Shown: positions 31,037 to 58,384 of the stretch, piece after piece
Numbering within the stretch: the first letter of the stretch is position 1
Layout of the letters: each line of letters begins with the position of its first letter
NCBI GenBank assembly: GCA_036377715.1
Contig: DASUXW010000194.1
Span: forward strand, 528 to 64,527
Direction: 5' to 3'
Origin: Gemmatimonadales bacterium
Lineage (GTDB): Bacteria; Gemmatimonadota; Gemmatimonadetes; Gemmatimonadales; GWC2-71-9
DNA: 64,000 nt
Program-made: the position numbers and the translations under genes
The notes under the pieces: generated by a model
The model's input: the letters and a program-made list of their open reading frames with translations, nothing else
Told to the model about the DNA's origin: nothing
The model's database searches: none

Positions 31037-32158
31037 CTAGGTGCAGCCCGGCAGCGCGGGGCTCGGAGCACCCCCCGGCAGGTCCAGGTCCAGGCTCGAG
31101 TCGAACACGTTGCCCTCCCAGCAGTCCCCTGTTCCGGTCCCGTCCCACAGGAGGTCCACGCCAGGGGGAAGGAACGGGATCGGCTGCGCGCCTCCGTTGC
31201 CCGTGACGGTGTTTTCCCGCACCCGGACGTGATCGGGGAAGGGCTCGATGTCGTCGATCGGCACGCCGGCGAGCTCGGCGAGCAGGCCGGTATTGGCCAC
31301 GCCGACCCCCACGAAGCTGTTGCCGGTGATGCGGTTGGCGCTTACATCCGTCGCGTCCGTGCCCACGATCAGGATTCCGGAGCCGGTCGGCACGAACGCG
31401 TCGATGCCCTCGGTGCTGGGGTTGGGGCGGTTGTTGTCGTGCAGGTTGTTGTGGGTCAGCAAGAGGTCCGACGACGACTTGACGGAAAGCCCCGGCAGCA
31501 GCACCACCAGAACTCCCGCGACGTTGTCGAAGCTCTCGTTGTCGGAGACCTGGACATCGGACGAGTTCTCGATCTCGATGCCGCTGAGATTGCCGGAGGC
31601 CGTGCTGCCCCGAACCGCCACGTGCTCGGATTGACCGACATAGATGCCGGCATCGCCGTGTCCGCGTGCCGAGCAGCGCTCGATCAAGCCGTTCGAGGAC
31701 AGCACCGGAAAGAGGCCGTACTCCCCGTCGTTCTCGGCGACCACGTCGGAGAGGTGGAACCCGCTCACGCCCACGAGCAGGATCCCGTTCTCCTCGAAGT
31801 TCCGGACGGTGAGGTTGGCGATCTCCACACCGGCTCCCGCCGCGGTCACGGTGATGCCGTTCTCCTGGCCCCCCGGATTCTCGAGGATCGGGGGCCGCCT
31901 GCCGATTCCCACCAGCTCGATCCCGGCCCTGTCGATGGTCACGGACTGGGCATAGATCCCGGGACGGAGGAAGATCCGGTCTCCGGGCTGCGCGGCGTCC
32001 ACCGCCGCCTGGATCGATTCACCCGGCCCGACCACCGTGGTGTGGTGGCCGAAGGGCGCCGACTCCGGCGCCTGGGACCGAGGCCCGGACGGTGCGGTCG
32101 TGTCACATGCCGCGGCAAGAAGGGCGATGACGCAACAAAGAAACGAGCGAGTCGACAT
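31037..32158 (-). CDS. right-handed parallel beta-helix repeat lipoprotein (NosD/pectate-lyase-like fold)
   Basis: Internal ATG at 32158 (GGGAGG 6 nt upstream) of track ORF 31037..32314. Lipobox LLAAAC, with repeated ...GI.V..S..V.V..N... beta-helix rungs. Confidence 0.85.
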   Translation of the reverse strand: MSTRSFLCCVIALLAAACDTTAPSGPRSQAPESAPFGHHTTVVGPGESIQAAVDAAQPGDRIFLRPGIYAQSVTIDRAGIELVGIGRRPPILENPGGQENGITVTAAGAGVEIANLTVRNFEENGILLVGVSGFHLSDVVAENDGEYGLFPVLSSNGLIERCSARGHGDAGIYVGQSEHVAVRGSTASGNLSGIEIENSSDVQVSDNESFDNVAGVLVVLLPGLSVKSSSDLLLTHNNLHDNNRPNPSTEGIDAFVPTGSGILIVGTDATDVSANRITGNSFVGVGVANTGLLAELAGVPIDDIEPFPDHVRVRENTVTGNGGAQPIPFLPPGVDLLWDGTGTGDCWEGNVFDSSLDLDLPGGAPSPALPGCT

Positions 32159-32200
32159 GGGGTGCCTCCCTGGCTCCGTGCTGGCGAGGTAGGGCGCGAC

Positions 32201-32891
32201 GCGCCACTCGCCTGGTTCCCGCGCCTCGAGCTCTCTTTCCGGAGGCGTGATCTCCTCCTCCCGCTCCGATAGCGGGATTTCCCGCTGCATCATCACTGCA
32301 TCCCGCCACGTCATCGCCGCTTCCCGCCCCGTTCGGACAGATCCCGCGGCGTCGCGCCGAGCTCCCGTTCCGTGCTCGAGATTTCCCGCTGGACGGCCTT
32401 CTCGTCCCGCTTGGTCATCTCCCCGTCCCGCCGCGCGATCGCCGCGTCCCCTTACGTCACGGGCACCTCCCGCTCCCGACGCTGTGCTTCCCGACCCGAC
32501 ACCGCGCCATCCCGTTGCGCGATCGGTCCGCGCCGGGACGTCGCGGGGAGTTCCCGGCCGGCTTCGGCGTCTCCCGCTCCGTCACGCCTCCATCCCACGA
32601 CGGCGGTTCCAGTTCCCGTCATCGAACGCCCTTGTCCCGCGCCGAACGCGCTCCTTCCCGTTACGTGACTCCCACGTCCCGCTCCGACGCCCCTGCGTCG
32701 CGCGACGAGTGCGACAGTTCCCGCGAGCGATCGCTCGTCTCCAGGCGCATCACCTGCGCTTCCCGCCCTCGATGCTCCTCGTCCCGGTTCGCCGCCTGCG
32801 TCTCACGATCGAGACGCTTCAGTTCCCGCGGCGTCATCGCTCTCTCCCGCTCCGTCTCCGCGACGTCCCGAAGCATCACGCCCGCATCCCA
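32201..32891 (-). repeat. phased 21-bp array: ~33 units each beginning CGGGA (minus strand), non-coding as it stands
   Basis: Plus-strand TCCCG starts at 32217, 32259, 32280, 32301, 32322, 32342, 32363, 32384, 32405, 32426, 32468, 32489, 32510, 32552, 32572, 32614, 32635, 32656, 32677, 32719, 32761, 32782, 32824, 32845 and 32866. One-mismatch versions sit at the in-phase slots 32238, 32447, 32593, 32740, 32803 and 32887. Slots 32531 and 32698 are degenerate. Spacing is 21 throughout, except 20 at two places. Confidence 0.9.
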
Positions 32892-32945
32892 TTCTGTCGC
32901 AGCGACAACCCTCAACCGCCGAAGCAGGAAAGTTCGACGCATCAG

Positions 32946-34406
32946 CTATTCCGACACCACCGCGAGCGCGTTCACCTGGCCAGGGCCGTAGAAGCCGTTG
33001 TATCCCACGCCGCCCTGGCAGGTCGCCGGGAAGAAGCCGCCGGGATTGAACGGCTCGGGCGGGCAGGCCACCGGATCGGCCGTCCGGGTGATCAGCGCCT
33101 GCAGCTTACCGGGCGACATCGTGCCGTGCGCGGAGATCGCCAGGGCCGCGACACCGGCGACGTGCGGCGAGGCCATCGACGTTCCCTCAGAGAGCGCGTA
33201 GCCGCCCGGGAAGGTTGACAGGACCAATCCCGCAAAGGGATCCTCGGTCTGGAACGGGAAGTCACCGCCCGGCGCGACCACCTGAACGACGCCGACGCCG
33301 TAGTTCGAGTAGAAGGACTTCTGCCGCGACGGACCATTGGCCGAGACGCCGATCACGCCCGGGATCTCGACCGGGATGACGACGCAGGCGTTCGTCACCT
33401 CACGTGTGAGAGGCGGCCCGTCGTCCGGACTGATCCCGTCGATGTTCCGCTTCGAGAGGTCCTGGTTCTCGTTGATCAACGCCGCGACGACCGTCACCCC
33501 CTGCTGCATCGCGTAGCGGATCGCCCGCTGCTCCGCCTTCCAGATCGCCCGCTGCTCGGGGTCGTTCCGGCAGTTGAAGAGCCAGGGGTCGGCGAAGTAG
33601 CTGTTGTTGGTCACGTCCAGGTGATGCGAGCCAGCCCACATGAACGCGCAGATGACCGCCTCGGGGAAGAAGAACCCGGCGGAGGTGGCAGCCTTGATGG
33701 CCGCGACTTTCACGTTGGGCGCGACGCCGACGATTCCGATGCCGTTCCTGGCCGCGGCGATGGTCCCGGCCGTATGGGTGCCGTGCCCGTTGTCGTCGGC
33801 CCAGGCGGCGGGGTCCGGGTTCGCGACACCGCCGAGGCAGGAGACGCTGTTCGCGAAATCCACGTTGGGCGCCAGATCGGGGTGGGTGAAATGGATTCCC
33901 GTGTCGATATCGCCGACCACGACAGAGGGACTCCCGCCGTCGATCGCACGGGCCTCGGGAGCATGGATCTGCACCATGTCCCACTGATAGACTGAGAAGG
34001 GGTCGTCCCCGGGAGCCGGCGTGCCGGCCGGCAGCGGCTTGGCCTCTCTCAGCTCCTCAGTCATCCGGGTCGCGACACCGGCCGTCGCCGACGCACCCTC
34101 GACCCTCTTGTCCTTCCCGATGGCGGCGGCGAACGACGAGCTCGTCGACCGCGCGATCGCCACGCCGATGGCATCATAGCGCGCCACGAGCGTGCCGCCG
34201 GCGCCCGCCACCGTCTCGGCCGCATCGGCCGGGACCGCCGTTCCCTTGTAGAGAATGACGTAAGTGCCTGCCGCGCCGGCGCTCGCGCGGGCTGACGGGG
34301 TGACGTCCGGCGGGGTGCCGGGATCCGTGGGCGTAGGGTTCTCGCTGCACGCGAGCATGGCGATGCCGAGCGCGACGATCGGGACCAGGGGGGAGACGCG
34401 GTTCAT
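32946..34406 (-). CDS. S8-family (subtilisin-like) serine peptidase lipoprotein
   Basis: 486-aa ORF with lipobox IAMLAC. Catalytic-triad contexts VVVGDIDTGI (Asp), HGTHTAGTIAA (His) and GTSMASPHVAG (Ser). Confidence 0.93.
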   Translation of the reverse strand: MNRVSPLVPIVALGIAMLACSENPTPTDPGTPPDVTPSARASAGAAGTYVILYKGTAVPADAAETVAGAGGTLVARYDAIGVAIARSTSSSFAAAIGKDKRVEGASATAGVATRMTEELREAKPLPAGTPAPGDDPFSVYQWDMVQIHAPEARAIDGGSPSVVVGDIDTGIHFTHPDLAPNVDFANSVSCLGGVANPDPAAWADDNGHGTHTAGTIAAARNGIGIVGVAPNVKVAAIKAATSAGFFFPEAVICAFMWAGSHHLDVTNNSYFADPWLFNCRNDPEQRAIWKAEQRAIRYAMQQGVTVVAALINENQDLSKRNIDGISPDDGPPLTREVTNACVVIPVEIPGVIGVSANGPSRQKSFYSNYGVGVVQVVAPGGDFPFQTEDPFAGLVLSTFPGGYALSEGTSMASPHVAGVAALAISAHGTMSPGKLQALITRTADPVACPPEPFNPGGFFPATCQGGVGYNGFYGPGQVNALAVVSE

Positions 34407-34950: not shown

Positions 34951-35171
34951 ATGGCCTCCTCGGGTGGGCAGCCGGAGCCCCGGGTGGGCTCCGATCAGGT
35001 TCTACCTATCCGTCGAATCGCGGGGGGAAAATCGACAGATCGGACGAAGAGCTCGCCCGGGCAGCGGGCCCTACTTGTCCATTCCTGAAACGATCCTTAA
35101 CATGGAGCCCGAGCCGGTGCCCACCGGTGCTGGGGGCTGGGTGGTGGATTCCTCATCCAGGAGGCTCGGGC

Positions 35172-35876
35172 GTGCCGATCTCCTACACCCTCGAGCCTCT
35201 CCGCTCGACCGGACTCGTGCGTGTCACGATGACCGGCCTCATCACCGCCGACGCACTCGCGTCACACCTGCTGTACCTATCCGAACAACGACTGTTCGGG
35301 CTCCCCGAGTTCGTCGACATGCGGGCGGCCCGGCTCGGCTGGTCCGGTGAGGAGATACGGTGGATCACGCAGTTGGTCGCCGTGCTTCGCAAGCGCTACG
35401 GCCCCGCGGTGGTGAGCGTGCTGGCTGACGAGGACGACACGTTCGACGTCCTGATCCAGTACCTCCTCGCGGCTGGTGACGCCGATCCGGGGGTCGGTCT
35501 GTTCCGCGATCGCCGGGAGGCCGAGGGGTGGCTGCACGATCGGGAGTTCTCCAGTCCAGCCCCCGACCTGGTCTTCAGCTCTGCTCGGCGCGTGCAGGGC
35601 ACCGCCGGGCTCAAGCCCGAGCGGCCGCCGGCGGCAGGCTGCGGCGTGCTGGGGTACGCCCGCGTTCGACGGGGTCTGGTACGCAGCGCCGTCGGGCTGG
35701 ATCCGGCGCGCTGGTATCCCGTGATCGCGCAACCGGCCGACGTGCTGGCGATCCACGTCAAGGGCTTTGTATGGCTGAACGATGCGGGGCAGGTCCGGCG
35801 CGTGCCCCTCCGCCTGCTCGAGGTCATCTGGGGAGGCATGTCGCCGCCTATGGATAGCTGCCGAGGTGACGTATGA
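35172..35876 (+). CDS. hypothetical protein, N-terminal STAS/SpoIIAA-like-looking domain + unknown C-terminal domain
   Basis: GTG at 35172 with AGGAGG 8 nt upstream, inside track ORF 35127..35876. The N-terminal ~120 aa are paralogous to the C-terminus of the next gene. The fold guess is inference only. Confidence 0.6.
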   Translation: MPISYTLEPLRSTGLVRVTMTGLITADALASHLLYLSEQRLFGLPEFVDMRAARLGWSGEEIRWITQLVAVLRKRYGPAVVSVLADEDDTFDVLIQYLLAAGDADPGVGLFRDRREAEGWLHDREFSSPAPDLVFSSARRVQGTAGLKPERPPAAGCGVLGYARVRRGLVRSAVGLDPARWYPVIAQPADVLAIHVKGFVWLNDAGQVRRVPLRLLEVIWGGMSPPMDSCRGDV

Positions 35877-36511
35877 CCGATCTCGAACTCGAGCTGCTGC
35901 GCCGGATCGCGCCCACCGGCTCCACGTTCGCGCCCGAGGGCAGCAGCGGACTGGATCGTCAGGCATTTCGCGTCCTGGTCCGCCACGTACGATCCCTAAT
36001 GGCGCAGGGGCTGGTCGTCGCCGACTTCCTGATGCCGGAGGAGTCGCGGCGGACCGAGCCCTTGTTGATTTCCTGCTCGCTCACCGAACTCGGCCAGCTC
36101 GCGGTTGCGGGTGACCGCCTGACGGCGGGCAGCATCAGCTACACCGTAGACCACGAGGCGCGAATCGTCCGGGTCACTGCACGGGGCACCATTACGGCCG
36201 CGGATCATGTGCGGCACGTGCGGGGCCTGGCCGCGTCCGGGCTGTTTGGGTACCATCGGCTCGCGGATTATCGCGATGCCTTCGTCGACACCGGGCCGCA
36301 GGACCTGCAGCGGGTTCTTCAGGTGGTCCATCAGCTCCGACGCGGCACTCAGCCCGCGCGGACTGCGTTTGTCACCGCCAACGACACCTTCTACGGGATG
36401 CTGCGGATGTATGAGGCGCTTGCCGTCGACCCGGCGCACGTAGTGCGGGTGTTCCTGGACCTCGGCGAGGCTGAAGCCTGGCTGGGCTGCGCGGTGCCCC
36501 AAGCGAGGTGA
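35873..36511 (+). CDS. hypothetical protein, unknown N-terminal domain + C-terminal domain paralogous to 35172..35876 N-terminus
   Basis: 212-aa ORF. The start overlaps the upstream stop (ATGA). Shared motifs: ISYT..., VRVT..G.ITA, LFG, DTF, F.D..EAE.WL. Confidence 0.6.
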   Translation: MTDLELELLRRIAPTGSTFAPEGSSGLDRQAFRVLVRHVRSLMAQGLVVADFLMPEESRRTEPLLISCSLTELGQLAVAGDRLTAGSISYTVDHEARIVRVTARGTITAADHVRHVRGLAASGLFGYHRLADYRDAFVDTGPQDLQRVLQVVHQLRRGTQPARTAFVTANDTFYGMLRMYEALAVDPAHVVRVFLDLGEAEAWLGCAVPQAR

Positions 36512-36719
36512 TCGCCGCGGGCCACGCACCCGGCCATGCGAAGGTCAGGCACAAGTGCGACCGACCCGAGGAAGCAGAAAGCCCCGCAACTCGGTAGAGT
36601 CACAGGGCCTTCGAGTTGGGTCTGGCGAGGATGGGAGCTCGGTTGTCATCGGCGGTTCGAGGGCTCGATCGCCTCCGGCTCGAATGCTGGGCTTTGCCGG
36701 ACAGTATACCCGCCCCCGT

Positions 36720-37226
36720 TCACGCGAGGCGCCACTCCGCGAGCGAGGCGTAGGTCCGTCCGTGCTGATCCGGAACGATCGTCAGCTCGAGCGCGGTGAC
36801 CGCATCGAGATCGACGCTCAGCTCCTCGATCTCGCTGGTCGCGCCGGCAGGGCTGAACGTGTACTGCTGGCGGACGATTTCCTGGAACGACCGTCCTCCA
36901 TCCCGGGACCAGCGCAAGGCGAACTCCTGCGTCCGCTCGATGTCGGCCTCCTGGAACCGGAGCCGCATGTGTCGGAGCCGCTGCGGCGCACGGAACAGGA
37001 GGCGGATACTCTGCCTGCCGGGATCCGCCGCGCGCCAACCCGCTCCGCCGCTCGACACCAGCGCCCCCTCGATCGGGTGCGCGGCGTCCTCGGACGTGAT
37101 CTCCACCTCGGCCAGATGGTCCAGGTCCAGCCAGGTCCCCGGTGTTACCCGCTCCTCGACCGCGGCGCGAACGACCCGTTTCTCCATGCCTGATCCTTCC
37201 GATCCCGGCTCGCCCTGCCCGCTCAC
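36720..37226 (-). CDS. hypothetical protein, galactose-binding-domain-like (discoidin/F5-8C-like) impression
   Basis: 168-aa ORF. The GTG start overlaps the upstream stop (GTGA). An alternative ATG at 37187 has GGAAGGA upstream. The W.A.....Q.I.L.F......M.L.F pattern suggests a jelly-roll domain, with low certainty. Confidence 0.6.
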   Translation of the reverse strand: MSGQGEPGSEGSGMEKRVVRAAVEERVTPGTWLDLDHLAEVEITSEDAAHPIEGALVSSGGAGWRAADPGRQSIRLLFRAPQRLRHMRLRFQEADIERTQEFALRWSRDGGRSFQEIVRQQYTFSPAGATSEIEELSVDLDAVTALELTIVPDQHGRTYASLAEWRLA

Positions 37227-37690
37227 CAGGTCAGAATGTCGAGCTCGTCGAGACAGGCCGCAACCGAGACGAGCGAAGTGAGGTTGAGCTCCCGCCTGAA
37301 CCGGTATGCGGCGTCCCGCACGTCGCGGGAGACGGGCGTGCCGGTCCGCTGGCGATACAGGCGGTACGAGTCCCCCAGTTCCTCAAAGACTCGTCGGAGC
37401 GATCGGGCCTCTCGCACCTGCTCGGGGCTTCGGGTGGTGCTGGCCGACAACGGATCAGAAACCAGTGGCCGGCGGAGCCTCGCCCTGGGTCGCGTCGCCT
37501 TGGCGCGCCGATCCACGGCAAGGCCGGCCTCGCTGACGCGCGCCAGCACACGATCGGTAAGAGTTTGGGGAATGGGGCGATTCGATCCGCTTGGGCGGGA
37601 TGAGGGGTCGGACATTCGGGCCTGCCATTGGCTAAAGGCGGACGCCTCCGTGCCGGTGTGGGAAGAGGGTACCTGGGAACCTAGCGGCAT
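37223..37690 (-). CDS. hypothetical protein
   Basis: 155-aa ORF, translationally coupled to 36720..37226. No family recognised. Confidence 0.5.
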   Translation of the reverse strand: MPLGSQVPSSHTGTEASAFSQWQARMSDPSSRPSGSNRPIPQTLTDRVLARVSEAGLAVDRRAKATRPRARLRRPLVSDPLSASTTRSPEQVREARSLRRVFEELGDSYRLYRQRTGTPVSRDVRDAAYRFRRELNLTSLVSVAACLDELDILTW

Positions 37691-37926
37691 GTACCTCGAT
37701 TCGCGAACCGAAGTGGCTGCCGGCTAATCCACTCGAGCGATCGTGATGCGCTCGCAGGGCGTCGTTGGGGACCGGCAGAGCCGAACGGAAACGCCCCGGA
37801 AACGGTCCGGCCAACCATCACCGGCGCCCATCGACTGGAGCGGTAGGTTGAAGGGTCTCCGGCCGCCCCGCGCTTCGCGGCCAGGGTCGTACCTCCCTGT
37901 AACGCTCTCCCTGACGCGAGACCTCC

Positions 37927-38808
37927 ATGATCCTGCTCAGCCTGGCTCTCCTCACCCTCCCGGTCGACAGCGCCGTGGTCCGGGATATCCAAGTCGCCGA
38001 CGGCGAGACCCTCCGCACCACCTCCGCCGGCACCGGTCAGCCGATCGTCATGATTCCCGGCATATTCGGTGGCGCGTTCGGGTACCGGAAGATCACCGGG
38101 CCACTGGTCGCCCAGGGCTACCGTACCATCGTGGTGGAGCCGCTCGGCTACGGGTTCTCCTCTCATCCGAAGAAGGCGGACTATTCCTTCGGAGCGCAGA
38201 GCGAACGTGTGGCCCGCACGCTCGACCAGATGGGCGTCAAGCGAGCCCTCATCGTCGCCCAGTCCAGCGGTGCCGCCATTGCCTTTCGCCTCGCAGTGAA
38301 ACGGCCCGACCTCGTGCGGGGGCTTCTCTCCATCGACGGGGGACCCGCCGAGAGCGCAGCCACGCCGGGAATGAAGAAGGCGTTCAAGTTCGGCGGCGGA
38401 CTGGTCAAGCTCACGCTGGATGAATCCAGGCTGCGACATGAAGTCCGGCGCGAGATCGTCGAGAATTCGGGAGATACCATTTGGATCACCGATGCGGTGA
38501 TTCGCGGCTACACGGCCGGGCAAACGGCCGATCTCGGCGGGGCGATCGACGCGTTTCACCAGATGGCCAGGTCAAAGGAGAGCACCTCCCTGGCCGAGCG
38601 ACTCCATCAGTGTGTGGCGCCTGTCCTGCTTCTGGTGGGGACGGCGGCGCACCCGGCAGAGGTACCGGACGACCAGCGCGAGCTGTTGAAGACCAGGCTG
38701 CGCAGCTTCCACGCCGAAGCCGTCCGCGGAGCGGGCCAGTACATTCAGGAAGAGCAGCCCGCCGTGGTGCTCGCAGCGCTGGCGCGGCTGAATCGGGAAG
38801 CAAGGTAA
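37927..38808 (+). CDS. alpha/beta hydrolase
   Basis: 293-aa ORF. IVMIPGIFGG oxyanion region, nucleophile elbow AQSSGAA, and a C-terminal His region. Confidence 0.85.
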   Translation: MILLSLALLTLPVDSAVVRDIQVADGETLRTTSAGTGQPIVMIPGIFGGAFGYRKITGPLVAQGYRTIVVEPLGYGFSSHPKKADYSFGAQSERVARTLDQMGVKRALIVAQSSGAAIAFRLAVKRPDLVRGLLSIDGGPAESAATPGMKKAFKFGGGLVKLTLDESRLRHEVRREIVENSGDTIWITDAVIRGYTAGQTADLGGAIDAFHQMARSKESTSLAERLHQCVAPVLLLVGTAAHPAEVPDDQRELLKTRLRSFHAEAVRGAGQYIQEEQPAVVLAALARLNREAR

Positions 38809-38829
38809 GTGCGAGACGGAACAGATCCA

Positions 38830-38858
38830 TTGCCCTACTGAGCAGGTGCAGCTATACT
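38830..38858 (+). promoter_or_regulatory. candidate sigma70-type promoter of the cold-shock gene (TTGCCC-17-TATACT)
   Basis: -35 at 38830-38835, a 17-nt spacer, and -10 at 38853-38858. This would give a ~160-nt leader, as is usual for csp genes. Confidence 0.5.
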
Positions 38859-38873
38859 CCTGCAGCGAGGACA

Positions 38874-38905
38874 GGGGACCGGCGCCAGGCCGGTCCCCTT
38901 CTTCG
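38874..38905 (+). terminator. GC-rich stem-loop + T-rich tract: terminator of the hydrolase gene and/or 5'-leader structure of csp
   Basis: GGGGACCGGC (38874-38883) / GCCGGTCCCC (38889-38898), 5-nt loop, then TTCTTCG. Confidence 0.5.
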
Positions 38906-39025
38906 TGGCGATCGTTCCTAGCGCACTAGCGCGGCGCTCGCCGGCCGGCGTGGGGGCGAAATCCACGCAGAACGTAGTCGAGAGTGCGGCATACCCGGCT
39001 CCGATTACCAATTTGGAGTAGGGAC

Positions 39026-39241
39026 ATGGCACGCACCACTGGCACGGTCAAGTGGTTCAATGACGCGAAGGGCTTTGGATTCATCACGCCCGAGGATGGT
39101 CAGAAGGACTGCTTCGTGCACCACTCGGCGATCTCGGGTCAGGGCTTCAAGAGCCTGGCCGAGGGCGACCGGGTCGAATTCGATGTCGTGCAGGGCCAGA
39201 AGGGCCCCGCCGCAGAGAACGTCGTGAAGATCGCGAAGTAG
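39026..39241 (+). CDS. csp: cold-shock protein (CspA family)
   Basis: ATG at 39026 (GGAGTAGGG upstream), inside track ORF 38984..39241. [15 protein letters not shown] and DCFVHHSAI (RNP1/RNP2). Confidence 0.96.
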
Positions 39242-39256
39242 ATCTTCGCAGAATTC

Positions 39257-39299
39257 GAACGATGGCCGGCTCCAGCGGGGCCGGCCATTGTTCTTTTGT
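39257..39299 (+). terminator. intrinsic terminator of csp
   Basis: 14-bp stem GAACGATGGCCGGC / GCCGGCCATTGTTC (one G:U), followed by TTTTGT. Confidence 0.75.
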
Positions 39300-39327
39300 C
39301 GGAGCCACCCGCCCCCGGAGCGTCGTC

Positions 39328-39501
39328 TTGCCCAGGAACACCTACGGCCGTGAGAAGCGCCAGAAGGAATTGAACCGTCAGCGCAAGCGAGAAGAGAAGC
39401 AGCAGCGCAAGCTCGATCGAGCCGCCGCCCGTGCCGAGCAGCCGGACCCTGCCGAGCCCGGCGCCCCTGGCGCGCTACCCGCGGATCTCGGTTCCGAATG
39501 A
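39328..39501 (+). CDS. possible small Lys/Arg-rich protein (57 aa)
   Basis: TTG at 39328 with GGAG 7 nt upstream, in the frame of track ORF 39262..39501. PRNTYGREKRQKELNRQRKREEKQQRK then a Pro/Ala-rich tail. The listed ATG lies inside the csp terminator stem. Confidence 0.3.
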   Translation: MPRNTYGREKRQKELNRQRKREEKQQRKLDRAAARAEQPDPAEPGAPGALPADLGSE

Positions 39502-39539
39502 GCCGGAGCTTCGTCTATGCCGCCGCGGCGCCAGGCGGC

Positions 39540-39623
39540 GCTCGGCTCGAGCCCGTCGCCCGAGAGCATGATCCCGGTCAGGGACGAGTTGTGCGTCTTC
39601 GACAATTCCGAGATCTTCGTCAT
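39540..39623 (-). pseudogene. remnant of a second YciI-family gene
   Basis: The first 28 codons of track ORF 39378..39623 read MTKISELSKTHNSSLTGIMLSGDGLEPS. Positions 39540-39577 match 34789-34826 of the intact YciI gene at 37 of 38 nt. Beyond that the frame runs into unrelated Ala/Arg-rich sequence. Confidence 0.6.
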
Positions 39624-39714
39624 GAATGCTGACGATGATCACAACAGAACGTGATCAGGGATTCAGATGCTTTTGACCGTGATCCCGCGGGGTCGCCCGA
39701 CGGCCAGCATAGCC

Positions 39715-39750: not shown

Positions 39751-39823
39751 TTGCCCCTCCTGGGCTCGAACCAGGACTCTCCTGATCCAGAGTCAGGCGT
39801 GTTGCCAGTTACACCAAGGGGCA
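39751..39823 (-). tRNA. tRNA-Gln (anticodon CTG)
   Basis: Hand-folded cloverleaf: acceptor TGCCCCT/AGGGGCA (U1-A72), anticodon arm CCTGA-CTCTGGA-TCAGG, and T-arm CCTGG-TTCGAGC-CCAGG. No encoded CCA. Confidence 0.92.
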
Positions 39824-39865: not shown

Positions 39866-39938
39866 TGGAGCTGAGGGGGATCGAACCCCTGACCTCTGCA
39901 GTGCGATTGCAGCGCTCTCCCAGCTGAGCTACAGCCCC
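39866..39938 (-). tRNA. tRNA-Ala (anticodon CGC)
   Basis: GGGGCTGTAGCTCAGCTGGGAGAGC... with the G3:U70 Ala identity pair, anticodon loop ATCGCAC, and T-loop TTCGATC. Confidence 0.93.
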
Positions 39939-47624: not shown

Positions 47625-47830
47625 CCGGGCTCCGGTTGTTCGGGTTTGGGGTCCACGGCTCCGGCCGAAAGGCGACCCACCCGCTTCGCGGTACCCGGCG
47701 CCGGGCGCCACAGTCGCCGCCCGCATGCGTGGGGCTGCTACTACGGCTGAGATGACTGGCGGCGACTGACGCGCCCTCTGCGAGCATCGCCTCCCGGCCT
47801 GCGCCCGCAACTCCGTTCCCACCGCCCCGC

Positions 47831-47886
47831 TCACCGCTTACCGCTTACCGCTCACTGTTCACCGTTCACCGTTCACCGTTCACTCC
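47831..47886. repeat. tandem heptamer block (TYACYGY)x8
   Basis: TCACCGC TTACCGC TTACCGC TCACTGT TCACCGT TCACCGT TCACCGT TCACTCC. The last unit contains the rnz stop codon. Confidence 0.9.
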
Positions 47887-48813: not shown

Positions 48814-48984
48814 GGCGGTGAACAGTGAATGGTGAACGGTGAACAGTGAACGGTGAACAGTGAACGGTGAACAGTGAACGGTGAACAGTGAACAGTGAAC
48901 GGGACCAGCACACCGGGAGTAGTCTGGTGTGCTGGTCCCGTTCACTGTTCACTGTTCACCGTTCACCATTCACTGTTCACCGCC
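48814..48984. repeat. long palindromic element with heptamer-repeat arms (12 units left, 6 right)
   Basis: Core GGGACCAGCACACC (48901-48914) / GGTGTGCTGGTCCC (48926-48939). The left arm 48817-48900 is (RGTGAAY)x12 and the right arm 48940-48981 is the complementary heptamers x6. The element ends on the mlaD stop codon. Confidence 0.9.
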
Positions 48985-58300: not shown

Positions 58301-58384
58301 GCGGTGAGCGGTGAGCGGTAAGCGGGACCAGCACACCGGAGCGGGCACGTGTGCTGGTCCCGCTTACCGCTTACCGCTCACCGC
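58301..58384. repeat. long palindromic element, same family as 48814..48984
   Basis: 36-nt arms 58301-58336 / 58349-58384 (one G:T), with a 12-nt loop. The arms are heptamers GGTGAGC GGTGAGC GGTAAGC plus core GGGACCAGCACAC. Confidence 0.9.

What the first reader, a model, noticed from the sequence alone, without database searches (positions are those of the whole stretch)
32201..32891. About 33 same-strand CGGGA motifs phased at exactly 21 bp fill a 0.7-kb spacer between two secreted-protein genes
The 788-bp gap between the S8 peptidase stop (32946) and the beta-helix lipoprotein start (32158) is not an ordinary spacer. Read on the minus strand, it is a head-to-tail series of 21-nt units, each opening with CGGGA.

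Motif counts:
- 25 units are exact. Plus-strand TCCCG starts at 32217, 32259, 32280, 32301, 32322, 32342, 32363, 32384, 32405, 32426, 32468, 32489, 32510, 32552, 32572, 32614, 32635, 32656, 32677, 32719, 32761, 32782, 32824, 32845 and 32866.
- 6 in-phase slots carry one mismatch: 32238, 32447, 32593, 32740, 32803 and 32887.
- 2 slots are degenerate.
- Spacing is 21 everywhere except 20 at 32322->32342 and 32552->32572.
- Every copy has the same orientation. A given 5-mer would be expected about once in 700 bp by chance.

The rest of each unit is poorly conserved apart from a weak RTGACG around unit positions 13-18. Whole-unit homogenisation therefore cannot explain the pentamer.

In the heptad-like reading frame the motif is Arg-Glu/Asp. 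The Arg codon is CGG in 25 units, against one CGC and one CGT. That points to a nucleic-acid-level constraint rather than a protein-level one.

21 bp is two helical turns, so all motifs lie on one face of the DNA. It is also 7 codons. I know of no described element with this architecture.

Hypotheses (inference):
- a phased protein-binding array, iteron- or centromere-like, or a nucleoprotein filament track;
- a GGA-rich leader or intercistronic RNA acting as a decoy or landing pad for a GGA-binding protein, since CsrA/RsmA sponges carry many GGA motifs;
- a decayed heptad-repeat gene.
Basis: partly seen in the sequence, partly recalled or inferred. Interest (0 to 1): 0.85.

Follow-up and report, generated by a model that had tools for sequence, protein, structure and literature searches.

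The report
Eroding 21-nt CGGGA repeat tract
A 0.7-kb spacer between two secreted-protein genes of a soil Gemmatimonadota bacterium really does carry a CGGGA pentamer every 21 bases, but it occurs in only one narrow lineage, encodes nothing today, and is now losing its pentamers, so it looks like a relic rather than a working element.

Summary
On the minus strand, 25 exact CGGGA sit in one 21-nt register across 32201-32891, with two 20-nt steps, and 8 further slots are near-matches. All 15 exact 21-spaced CGGGA pairs in the 64-kb window lie here, against 0.93 expected.

Three independent metagenome contigs (L121, L241, L242; S8 96% identical) carry the same 33 units, so it is not an assembly artefact.

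A syntenic relative with S8 86% identical (L123) has no spacer at all. There the S8 stop overlaps the beta-helix start codon.

The tract is non-coding in every carrier. It has three in-frame stops and two frameshifts, and there is no protein homologue among 1.8 billion representatives.

CGG is used 26 times in 29, whereas real genes use 33% CGG before GAN (P about 1e-10). That implies a past constraint at the nucleotide level on the core and on unit length.

Among the four carriers, however, 8 of 15 substitutions hit the pentamer (Fisher P = 0.012), and at least three of those are polarised losses.

There is no RNA structure, Rfam match, terminator, promoter, or plasmid or phage match.

Verdict: a lineage-restricted repeat tract with only its core conserved, shaped by a lost constraint and now decaying. 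Its function is unproven. Interest is moderate.

The parts
32201..32891 (-). The array: 33 head-to-tail slots of 21 nt (two of them 20 nt). Consensus is CGGGA nGnGGnG RTGACG nnG. 25 slots have an exact CGGGA, 7 have one mismatch and 1 has two mismatches.
32892..32945 (-). Non-repetitive lead-in between the S8 stop codon and the first slot. It contains an ATG at 32942-32940, 4 nt after the S8 TAG and in the S8 frame.
32661..32942 (-). 93-codon ORF in the CGG-GAN frame (ORF-A). Gene callers call it as a gene in L241 and L242, and as 107 aa in L121. It has no homologue and no family hit, so it is probably not a real gene.
32661..32663 (-). In-frame TAA at slot position 19-21. It is present in the window, L241 and L242, and changed to TAT in L121.
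32619..32621 (-). In-frame TGA at slot position 19-21, shared by all four carriers.
32452..32454 (-). In-frame TAA at slot position 19-21, shared by all four carriers.
32557..32576 (-). 20-nt slot caused by a 1-nt deletion specific to the window. L121, L241 and L242 have 21 nt here, and instead lack 1 nt at window 32463.
32327..32346 (-). 20-nt slot shared by all four carriers.
32159..32200 (-). Non-repetitive tail with the beta-helix gene's own ribosome-binding site, GGGAGG at 32165-32170. It is homologous to the GGAGGCAC..ATG upstream region of array-less relatives L126 and L127.
32946..34406 (-). Upstream gene: S8 (subtilase) peptidase. Orthologues end at the same ..VVS[EKR]* position.
31037..32158 (-). 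Downstream gene: parallel beta-helix (NosD-like) lipoprotein with signal peptide MSTRSFLCCVIALLAAAC. The last array segment is in frame with it.
32064..32165 (-). 102 nt that are deleted in frame in L121, L241 and L242. The deletion removes the ribosome-binding site, the ATG and the signal peptide, so gene callers start the beta-helix protein at the array ATG (32314 equivalent; 391 aa).

Best explanation
The tract is a relic. It is a lineage-restricted tandem tract of 21-nt units in which only the core is conserved. It sits in the transcribed spacer of the S8 / beta-helix gene pair.

- **Past constraint.** For most of its history, selection acting on the nucleic acid held two things constant while the other 16 positions drifted almost to randomness. 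These were the pentamer CGGGA and the unit length of exactly 21 nt, which equals two turns of B-DNA and also seven codons.
- **Most likely mechanism (inferred, not shown).** A sequence-specific protein bound one CGGGA per protomer in a head-to-tail, regularly spaced array. It could have bound the duplex on one face, or the operon transcript.
- **Loss of constraint (inferred from rates).** The constraint was lost shortly before the four known copies diverged. One route is that the partner was lost. The other is that the tract arrived here from another context.
- **Current state.** The tract is now non-coding DNA that is shedding its pentamers and picking up 1-nt indels.
- **Shown directly.** The pattern, its restriction to one lineage, its non-coding state and its present erosion.
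For: - **Real and extreme phasing.**
- **Nucleotide-level rather than protein-level conservation.**
  - CGG is used 26 of 29 times, against 33% in real genes before GAN (P about 1e-10). GAA is used 12 of 19 times, against 13% of Glu codons in real genes.
  - The third codon positions 3, 12 and 18 are at least as conserved as the first and second positions.
- **Historical rate contrast.** Core positions are retained in about 91-97% of slots. Non-core positions are only 0.364 identical pairwise, against 0.291 by chance.
- **Length constraint.** Every slot is 21 nt except for 1-nt deletions. Two of the three indels differ between carriers, so they are recent.
- **Regime change.**
  - Among the window, L121, L241 and L242 there are 15 substitutions. 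Eight fall in the 165 core positions and seven in the 525 others (Fisher P = 0.012).
  - Three of the four changes private to L121 destroy a CGGGA.
- **Not coding.**
  - Three in-frame stops and one frameshift are shared by all carriers.
  - The codon score of the best frame is -0.15 to +0.15, against 0.58 +/- 0.18 for real genes.
  - No homologue or family was found.
- **Lineage-restricted.**
  - L123 has the same S8 / beta-helix / Acg-oxidoreductase order but no spacer.
  - L126 and L127 have no array.
- **Co-transcription is plausible.** The flanking genes have the same orientation, and no terminator-like or promoter-like site was found.
Against: - No binding protein, transcript or binding datum exists, so the mechanism is inference only.
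- The rate comparison rests on 15 substitutions. Ten of them lie in or next to G runs, so G-run mutability could inflate the core rate.
- Carriers are very close to each other (about 2% divergence in the array) and local divergence is mosaic, so polarity is known for only four changes.
- Coding-like features remain:
  - The GC order is pos3 > pos1 > pos2 in the CGG frame.
  - That frame scores best of six in all three segments.
  - 9 of 15 substitutions fall on its third positions.
  - The first segment is in frame with S8 and the last with the beta-helix gene.
- The strong purine skew of the sense strand (G 45%, C 25%, A 20%, T 10%) is not expected for a purely duplex-DNA site array.
- The estimate that the non-core positions are old assumes a single founder unit.
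Confidence: 0.4

Rival explanations
1. Decayed heptad-repeat gene. The tract was once translated as (Arg-Glu/Asp-x-x-hydrophobic-Thr-x)n, either as a small ORF coupled to the S8 stop or as an N-terminal extension of the beta-helix protein. It is now a pseudogene.
For: - 21 nt equals 7 codons.
- The CGG frame is the best of six frames in all three segments.
- In that frame GC3 > GC1 > GC2, and T is concentrated at second codon positions 8 and 14, which would give V/M/I/L at heptad position 5.
- 9 of 15 substitutions fall on third positions.
- There is an ATG 4 nt after the S8 stop in the same frame, and the last segment is in frame with the beta-helix gene.
- The stops and frameshifts look like pseudogene lesions.
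- In the deletion allele, the last 52 codons are called as the N-terminus of a 391-aa beta-helix protein in three samples.
Against: - Codon identity at the conserved residues is not protein-like. CGG is 26 of 29 against 33% expected, and GAA exceeds GAG in a genome that uses 87% GAG.
- No 3-nt indels have disturbed the 21-nt period.
- There is no in-frame stop before the beta-helix ATG, so the ancestral ORF would fuse across a lipoprotein signal peptide.
- No homologue was found in 5.8 billion clustered proteins or 1.84 billion representatives, and there is no Pfam or NCBIfam hit.
- The coding score is 2-4 sd below real genes.
- All known carriers are already broken.
Confidence: 0.25
2. Neutral by-product. 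This lineage readily expands G-rich heptamer and 21-mer microsatellites. The tract is an old expansion of that kind which has decayed without ever having a function.
For: - The window has several heptamer arrays (sequence).
- Other Gemmatimonadota contigs carry (CGGGAAG)n, (CGGGAGCGG..)n and (CGGGAGG CGGGAGG CGTGATG)n tracts, one of them directly 5' of a gene.
- The array is absent in L123.
- The core is eroding.
Against: - Neutral decay cannot leave five positions 91-97% intact while the other sixteen fall to near-chance identity.
- Neutral decay cannot keep every unit at 21 nt.
- Neighbouring units are not more alike than distant ones, so there is no sign of recent slippage.
- All four carriers have the same 33 slots, so there is no copy-number variation.
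Confidence: 0.15
3. A working RNA element in the S8 / beta-helix transcript. It would be a GGA-rich or Shine-Dalgarno-like track that titrates a GGA-binding protein of the CsrA/RsmA type, or holds 30S subunits as a standby track for the downstream gene.
For: - It has the same orientation as both genes and no terminator was found.
- The sense strand is G-rich and C-poor, which would be a poor Rho substrate (the Rho preference is from general knowledge).
- It carries 33 GGA-containing motifs.
- The single-unit junction of L123 (CGAGGTGGCGGCGATGAC) works as the beta-helix ribosome-binding site plus start. About 9 array units keep RTG 7 nt after the core.
Against: - The fold is no better than shuffles (z = -0.15), and stability is ordinary for this genome (-0.45 against -0.48 +/- 0.04 kcal/mol/nt).
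- The core is not preferentially unpaired (0.43 against 0.37).
- There is no Rfam family.
- An RNA sponge does not need a strict 21-nt register.
- C1 and G2 of the core are not explained by anti-Shine-Dalgarno pairing.
- The core is being lost, not kept.
- No csrA gene is known for this genome, and this could not be tested.
Confidence: 0.1
4. A working DNA element. It would be a phased protein-binding array with one site every two helical turns, acting as an iteron, centromere-like or nucleoprotein-filament track.
For: - The 21-bp register over 33 slots puts all cores on one face of the helix.
- All cores are direct repeats in one orientation.
- Only 1-nt indels are tolerated.
Against: - No rep, par or small DNA-binding gene lies within about 10 kb.
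- There is no plasmid or phage similarity.
- The array is absent from a syntenic relative.
- The strong strand asymmetry at non-core positions is unexplained.
- The core is eroding.
- Five specified base pairs is very little for a specific site.
Confidence: 0.07

Closest known systems
Degenerate (cryptic) minisatellite or tandem repeat in a bacterial intergenic spacer
   Same: It has head-to-tail units of constant length, is specific to one lineage, and lies between genes.
   Different: Only 5 of 21 positions are conserved. TRF detects just 2.3 copies. Neighbouring units are not more similar than distant ones, and there is no copy-number variation among carriers.
CsrB / RsmX/Y/Z-type sponge RNAs for CsrA/RsmA
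   Same: It has many GGA-containing motifs on one transcribed strand.
   Different: Sponge motifs sit in hairpin loops at irregular spacing, in a stand-alone sRNA gene. Here there are no hairpins, a strict 21-nt register, an intercistronic location and no Rfam match.
Plasmid iterons and partition-site arrays (e.g. 19-22-bp iterons, R1 parC, F sopC; from general knowledge)
   Same: They are direct repeats phased at about one or two helical turns that bind a protein cooperatively.
   Different: Those units are conserved over most of their length, number 3-12, and sit next to rep or par genes on plasmids or phages. None of this holds here.
MraZ / AbrB-type operators: direct repeats of a G-rich pentamer (TGGGN / TGGNA) in helical phase (recalled from memory; a lead, not a test)
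   Same: A short G-rich pentamer is repeated directly, in register with the DNA helix, and read by an oligomeric protein. Two slots here are TGGGA.
   Different: Those have 2-4 repeats at about 10-bp spacing upstream of the regulated operon. Here there are 33 repeats at 21 bp inside an operon, and no such regulator gene is nearby.
Heptad-repeat low-complexity proteins and their pseudogenes
   Same: It has a 7-codon period, a charged Arg-Glu/Asp pair, and a coding-like composition in that frame.
   Different: Codons, not just residues, are conserved. There is no intact copy and no homologue.

Membership tests
CsrA/RsmA sponge RNA | GGA motifs presented in the loops of short hairpins | tested here: not met
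   The MFE z-score is -0.15 against shuffles. Mean unpaired probability is 0.43 for the core and 0.37 for the rest.
CsrA/RsmA sponge RNA | Match to a curated family model (CsrB, CsrC, RsmX/Y/Z etc.) | tested here: not met
   There is no Rfam hit in the array even at E <= 10, and none at gathering score in the window.
CsrA/RsmA sponge RNA | Stand-alone sRNA gene with its own promoter and terminator | tested here: inconclusive
   No sigma-70-like promoter and no intrinsic terminator was found. The scan may not fit Gemmatimonadota promoters.
CsrA/RsmA sponge RNA | A csrA/rsmA gene in the same genome | not testable with these tools
   Only 64 kb of the genome is available.
Iteron / partition-site array | Units conserved over most of their 17-22 bp | tested here: not met
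   Only positions 1-5 exceed 1.2 bits. Non-core identity is 0.364 against 0.291 by chance.
Iteron / partition-site array | Adjacent rep or par gene, on a plasmid or phage replicon | tested here: not met
   The neighbours are YCII, S8 peptidase, beta-helix lipoprotein, Acg-type oxidoreductase, an alcohol dehydrogenase, a multicopper oxidase and a permease. There is no plasmid or phage similarity.
Heptad-repeat protein gene | An open reading frame through the repeats | tested here: not met
   There are three in-frame stops and two frameshifts in the window. Three stops and one frameshift are shared by all four carriers.
Heptad-repeat protein gene | Homologous proteins or an intact copy elsewhere | tested here: not met
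   The only hit is the array-derived N-terminus of the L121 beta-helix call. There were 0 hits in the exhaustive phmmer search and no Pfam or NCBIfam hit.
Heptad-repeat protein gene | Conserved residues encoded by varying synonymous codons, with the genome's codon usage | tested here: not met
   CGG is used 26 of 29 times against 33% expected (P about 1e-10). GAA is used 12 of 19 times against 13%.
Heptad-repeat protein gene | Coding-type composition in one frame | tested here: inconclusive
   The CGG frame is the best of six in all three segments, but it scores -0.15 to 0.15 against 0.58 +/- 0.18 for genes and -0.71 +/- 0.57 for off-frame sequence.
Ordinary tandem repeat / minisatellite | Head-to-tail units of constant period | tested here: met
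   There are 33 slots of 21 nt, two of them 20 nt, with autocorrelation peaks at multiples of 21.
Ordinary tandem repeat / minisatellite | Whole-unit similarity and copy-number variation between strains | tested here: not met
   TRF finds only 2.3 copies at 78%. All four carriers have the same slots.
Type III toxin-antitoxin RNA repeats (ToxI-like) | Near-identical repeats of about 34-45 nt directly upstream of an endoRNase toxin gene | tested here: not met
   The units are 21 nt and diverged, and the downstream gene is a beta-helix lipoprotein.

The most novel reading that the evidence does not exclude
The tract is, or until very recently was, the binding track of an undescribed protein. That protein would recognise CGGGA and polymerise head to tail with a fixed 21-nt footprint, forming a 33-protomer filament on duplex DNA or on the operon mRNA. 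This would be a new kind of periodic nucleoprotein element in Gemmatimonadota. Related CGGGA(A/G)G microsatellites elsewhere in the phylum would be smaller sites for the same factor.
Probability: 0.12. Interest if true: 0.75.

Novelty: new variant of a known kind. Interest (0 to 1): 0.4.

Why it matters
If the inference holds, this is a clean natural example of a repeat tract whose history can be read from rates alone. There was a long period in which only a 5-nt core and an exact 21-nt spacing were protected. That was followed by a recent release in which the core decays faster than its surroundings.

Such a history implies a trans-acting reader of CGGGA at a fixed spacing that is not yet known in Gemmatimonadota, a phylum with almost no molecular genetics.

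Practically, the result is also a caution. The pattern is statistically extreme, yet it is confined to one species-level lineage and is non-functional as a gene. Gene callers nevertheless annotate 93-107-aa and 391-aa products from it.

Tried and rejected
1. **Duplicated signal peptide.** I tested whether the 54-nt lead-in (MRRTFLLRRLRVVAATEWD) is a decayed duplicate of the beta-helix signal peptide (MSTRSFLCCVIALLAAACD). The local alignment score is at chance (13.0 against 13.5 +/- 2.1), so I rejected this.
2. **Amplified translation-initiation region.** I considered whether the units are amplified copies of the beta-helix ribosome-binding site plus ATG. The L123 junction and about 9 RTG-bearing units suggested it. 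However, the window's own ribosome-binding site is the ancestral one (shared with L126 and L127). Start codons are poorly kept, and C1 and G2 of the core are not Shine-Dalgarno-like. I kept it only as part of the RNA rival.
3. **Heptamer sub-period.** I asked whether 21 = 3 x 7, as in other Gemmatimonadota tracts. Lags 7 and 14 are not among the top autocorrelation lags.
4. **Plus-strand ORF.** The 323-aa ORF at 32247..33218 has no family hit and negative codon scores, and it overlaps the S8 3' end. Its length follows from the A-poor composition of the plus strand.
5. **RNA structure, Rfam, promoter and terminator scans.** Nothing was found.
6. **BLAST of the array against plasmids and phages.** There was no match.
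7. **Pattern scans of public collections.**
The viral scan (5 copies) returned 111 loci.
   - The hits are ordinary whole-unit 21-nt repeats, CGGGA-nn-TCCCG hairpin repeats, or runs of at most 14-19 slots.
   - None resembles 33 slots at 0.36 non-core identity.
   - The genome scan never reached the source genome.
8. **Rate comparison of the array against flanking four-fold sites.** It is uninformative because divergence between the window and L121 is mosaic, at 0-19 differences per 300 nt.
9. **Literature searches.** Two searches returned nothing relevant.
Full report
**1. The observation**

Read on the minus strand, 32891-32201 is a series of 33 slots of 21 nt.
- 25 slots open with an exact CGGGA, seven with a one-mismatch variant and one with two mismatches.
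- Two slots are 20 nt long.
One extra out-of-phase copy lies at 32474.

The pattern is far beyond chance.
- The window holds 15 CGGGA-N16-CGGGA pairs, every one in this array and on this strand. Dinucleotide shuffles give 0.93.
- The four-copy pattern occurs four times against zero expected.
- Autocorrelation peaks are at 42, 21, 63, 105 and 84.

Information content is 1.5-1.8 bits at positions 1-5. It is 1.15 at G18, 0.85 at G12 and 0.57 at C17, and T is present at position 14 in 48% of slots. The consensus is therefore CGGGA nGnGGnG RTGACG nnG.

The 16 non-core positions are 36.4% identical between slots, against 29.1 +/- 0.5% for register-destroying shuffles. Adjacent slots are no more alike than distant ones.

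The sense strand is purine-rich: G 45%, C 25%, A 20%, T 10%.

**2. Context**

The array fills the 787-nt gap between two genes on the same strand.
- Upstream is an S8 subtilase (32946-34406).
- Downstream is a parallel beta-helix (NosD-like) lipoprotein (31037-32158). Its own ribosome-binding site is GGGAGG at 32165-32170.
- A YCII gene lies further upstream and an Acg-family FMN oxidoreductase further downstream.

The closest named homologues of both flanking proteins are from Gemmatimonadales and Gemmatimonadota MAGs.

No promoter-like or terminator-like site lies in the spacer. Co-transcription with both genes is therefore the default expectation, but it is not shown.

**3. Relatives**

Three metagenome contigs from three JGI samples carry the same 33 slots, unit for unit. 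These are L121, L241 and L242, with S8 96% identical. The array is therefore not an assembly artefact.

All three share an exact 102-nt in-frame deletion. It removes the beta-helix ribosome-binding site, ATG and signal peptide. Gene callers therefore start a 391-aa beta-helix protein at an ATG inside the array.

Array-less relatives:
- L123 has S8 86% identical and the beta-helix protein 84% identical, with the same S8 / beta-helix / oxidoreductase order. It has no spacer at all. The S8 reading frame runs a few codons past the usual stop and its TGA overlaps the beta-helix ATG.
- L126 and L127 (beta-helix 77% and 71% identical) have an ordinary upstream region and no S8 gene.
- Other S8 homologues at 81-86% identity sit in unrelated contexts.

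The array is therefore confined to one species-level lineage.

One further candidate carrier could not be read. The P0125 contig has 1,084 nt without a called gene upstream of an N-terminally short beta-helix gene.

**4. It is not a gene now**

- In the CGG-GAN frame there are three in-frame stops (32663-32661, 32621-32619, 32454-32452) and two frameshifts. Three stops and one frameshift are shared by all four carriers, so their common ancestor was already broken.
- The conceptual translation hits only the array-derived N-terminus of the L121 beta-helix call among 5.8 billion clustered proteins.
- The 93-aa ORF has no hit among 1.84 billion representatives in an exhaustive phmmer search.
- Pfam and NCBIfam give nothing.
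- The long plus-strand ORF is a by-product of the A-poor composition of the plus strand.

**5. Coding-like and non-coding-like signals**

Signals in favour of a coding past:
- The CGG frame is the best of six in all three segments. It scores -0.15, 0.15 and -0.04, against 0.58 +/- 0.18 for real genes and -0.71 +/- 0.57 off frame.
- GC content by codon position in that frame runs pos3 > pos1 > pos2, the order seen in real genes.
- T is concentrated at second codon positions.
- 9 of 15 substitutions between carriers fall on third positions.
- The first segment is in frame with S8 and the last with the beta-helix gene.

Signals against:
- Real genes here use CGC 61% and CGG 33% before a GAN codon, and GAG 87% for Glu. 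The array has CGG 26 of 29 (P about 1e-10) and GAA 12 of 19.
- The third codon positions 3, 12 and 18 are at least as conserved as the first two positions of those codons.
- No 3-nt indel has ever disturbed the 21-nt period.
- There is no stop between the array and the beta-helix ATG.

**6. History inferred from rates**

Core positions are retained in 91-97% of slots, while the other positions are close to saturation. If the slots share a founder, the core has evolved more than ten times more slowly than the rest, and indels were excluded throughout.

Among the four carriers the picture is reversed.
- There are 15 substitutions. Eight fall in the 165 core positions and seven in the 525 others (Fisher P = 0.012).
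- With L241 and L242 as close outgroups, three of the four changes private to L121 destroy a CGGGA. The fourth turns a TAA into TAT.
- Two of the three 1-nt indels are lineage-specific.
- Ten of the 15 substitutions lie in or beside G runs, so mutability may contribute.

In any case, no purifying selection on the core is detectable now. The simplest reading is a change of regime. A long-standing constraint on core and spacing was lifted shortly before these copies diverged. This could be because the reader of the motif was lost, or because the tract came from another context. The window's 25 intact cores (an inferred 27 in the common ancestor) are what remains.

The numbers are small and local divergence is mosaic, so this is an inference rather than a demonstration.

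**7. What it is not**

- **RNA.** The sense RNA folds no better than shuffles (z = -0.15). Its stability is ordinary for this genome. The core is not preferentially unpaired. No Rfam family matches. The hairpin-loop GGA architecture of CsrA sponges is not met.
- **DNA.** No rep, par or small DNA-binding gene lies nearby. There is no similarity to plasmids or phages. Iteron or centromere membership therefore fails on context and on unit conservation.
- **Elsewhere.** Pattern scans of genome contigs (truncated at 120 loci) and of viral contigs (111 loci) returned three kinds of hit: ordinary whole-unit 21-nt repeats, hairpin-type CGGGA-nn-TCCCG repeats in Verrucomicrobia and Bacteroidota, and short runs. 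The nearest in style have 14-19 slots and 0.41-0.48 non-core identity (L052 and L075). Nothing has 33 slots at 0.36.

**8. Verdict**

The pattern is real, unusual and unexplained by any described family. It is also narrow in distribution, non-coding and currently decaying.

| Reading | Confidence |
|---|---|
| Relic of a nucleic-acid-level, spacing-dependent constraint, most plausibly a protein that read one CGGGA per 21 nt | 0.40 |
| Decayed heptad-repeat ORF | 0.25 |
| Functionless old microsatellite of a lineage prone to G-rich repeats | 0.15 |
| Still-working RNA track | 0.10 |
| Still-working DNA track | 0.07 |

Interest is moderate (0.4). It would rise sharply if a more diverged carrier kept the core and phase, or if a binding partner were found.

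Noticed in passing
window 47820-47883; 48816-48902 facing 48938-48982; 58301-58325 facing 58360-58384: Short intergenic gaps hold tandem heptamer arrays. At 48.8-49.0 kb about 12 copies of GGTGAAC/AGTGAAC face about 6 copies of the reverse complement around a GC-rich hairpin core, forming one long imperfect palindrome between two minus-strand genes. This may be a lineage-specific terminator or REP-like element.
   Followed up: partly
L002 (about 177-400 on the minus strand), L108, L023, L114 6444-6548: Other Gemmatimonadota genomes carry CGGGA(A/G)G-based microsatellites. Examples are (CGGGAAG)n facing (CTTCCCG)n, and a (CGGGAGG CGGGAGG CGTGATG)n 21-nt tract running in frame into the N-terminus of an FAD-oxidoreductase-like gene. 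The core CGGGA recurs as a repeat seed in this phylum.
   Followed up: partly
window 32064-32165 (absent in L121, L241, L242): An exact 102-nt in-frame deletion allele, seen in three metagenome samples, removes the beta-helix lipoprotein's ribosome-binding site, start codon and signal peptide. The remaining ORF stays intact with mostly synonymous differences. In those strains the protein is either dead or made without a signal peptide from an array-derived start.
   Followed up: partly
window about 35000-39700; tRNA genes at 39751-39823 and 39866-39938 (minus strand): About 4.7 kb next to two tRNA genes has no reading frame with the genome's codon signature. All six frames score negative over 36001-39000, and only one alpha/beta-hydrolase Pfam hit was found. 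It is possibly foreign or degraded DNA.
   Followed up: partly
window 32534-32549 and 32855-32870: A 16-nt inverted repeat (94% complementary) lies within the array. Slot 17 contains the reverse complement of the start of slot 2 (CGGGACGTCGCGGAGA). It could pair over 305 nt in the RNA, but there is only one such pair.
   Followed up: no
L052 4670-4900, L075 6476-6810, L099 5062-5350, L012: Verrucomicrobia and Bacteroidota contigs have 21-nt tandem units of the form CGGGA-nn(n)-(T)CCCG plus a variable tail, so each unit is a small hairpin. In an Akkermansia contig a direct array is followed by its inverse. This is a different repeat class that shares the pentamer and the period.
   Followed up: no
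L123 2580-2601: In L123 the usual S8 stop (TAG) reads TGG. The S8 frame therefore runs three more codons (..VVSRWRR*) to a TGA that overlaps the beta-helix ATG, giving a 4-nt ATGA coupling junction.
   Followed up: yes
contig of P0125, JGI sample 3300056388 (no DNA available): A beta-helix homologue (83% identical, 348 aa, lacking the N-terminal ~25 residues incl. signal peptide) is preceded by 1,084 nt in which no gene was called. This is a possible second, more diverged carrier of the array.
   Followed up: no
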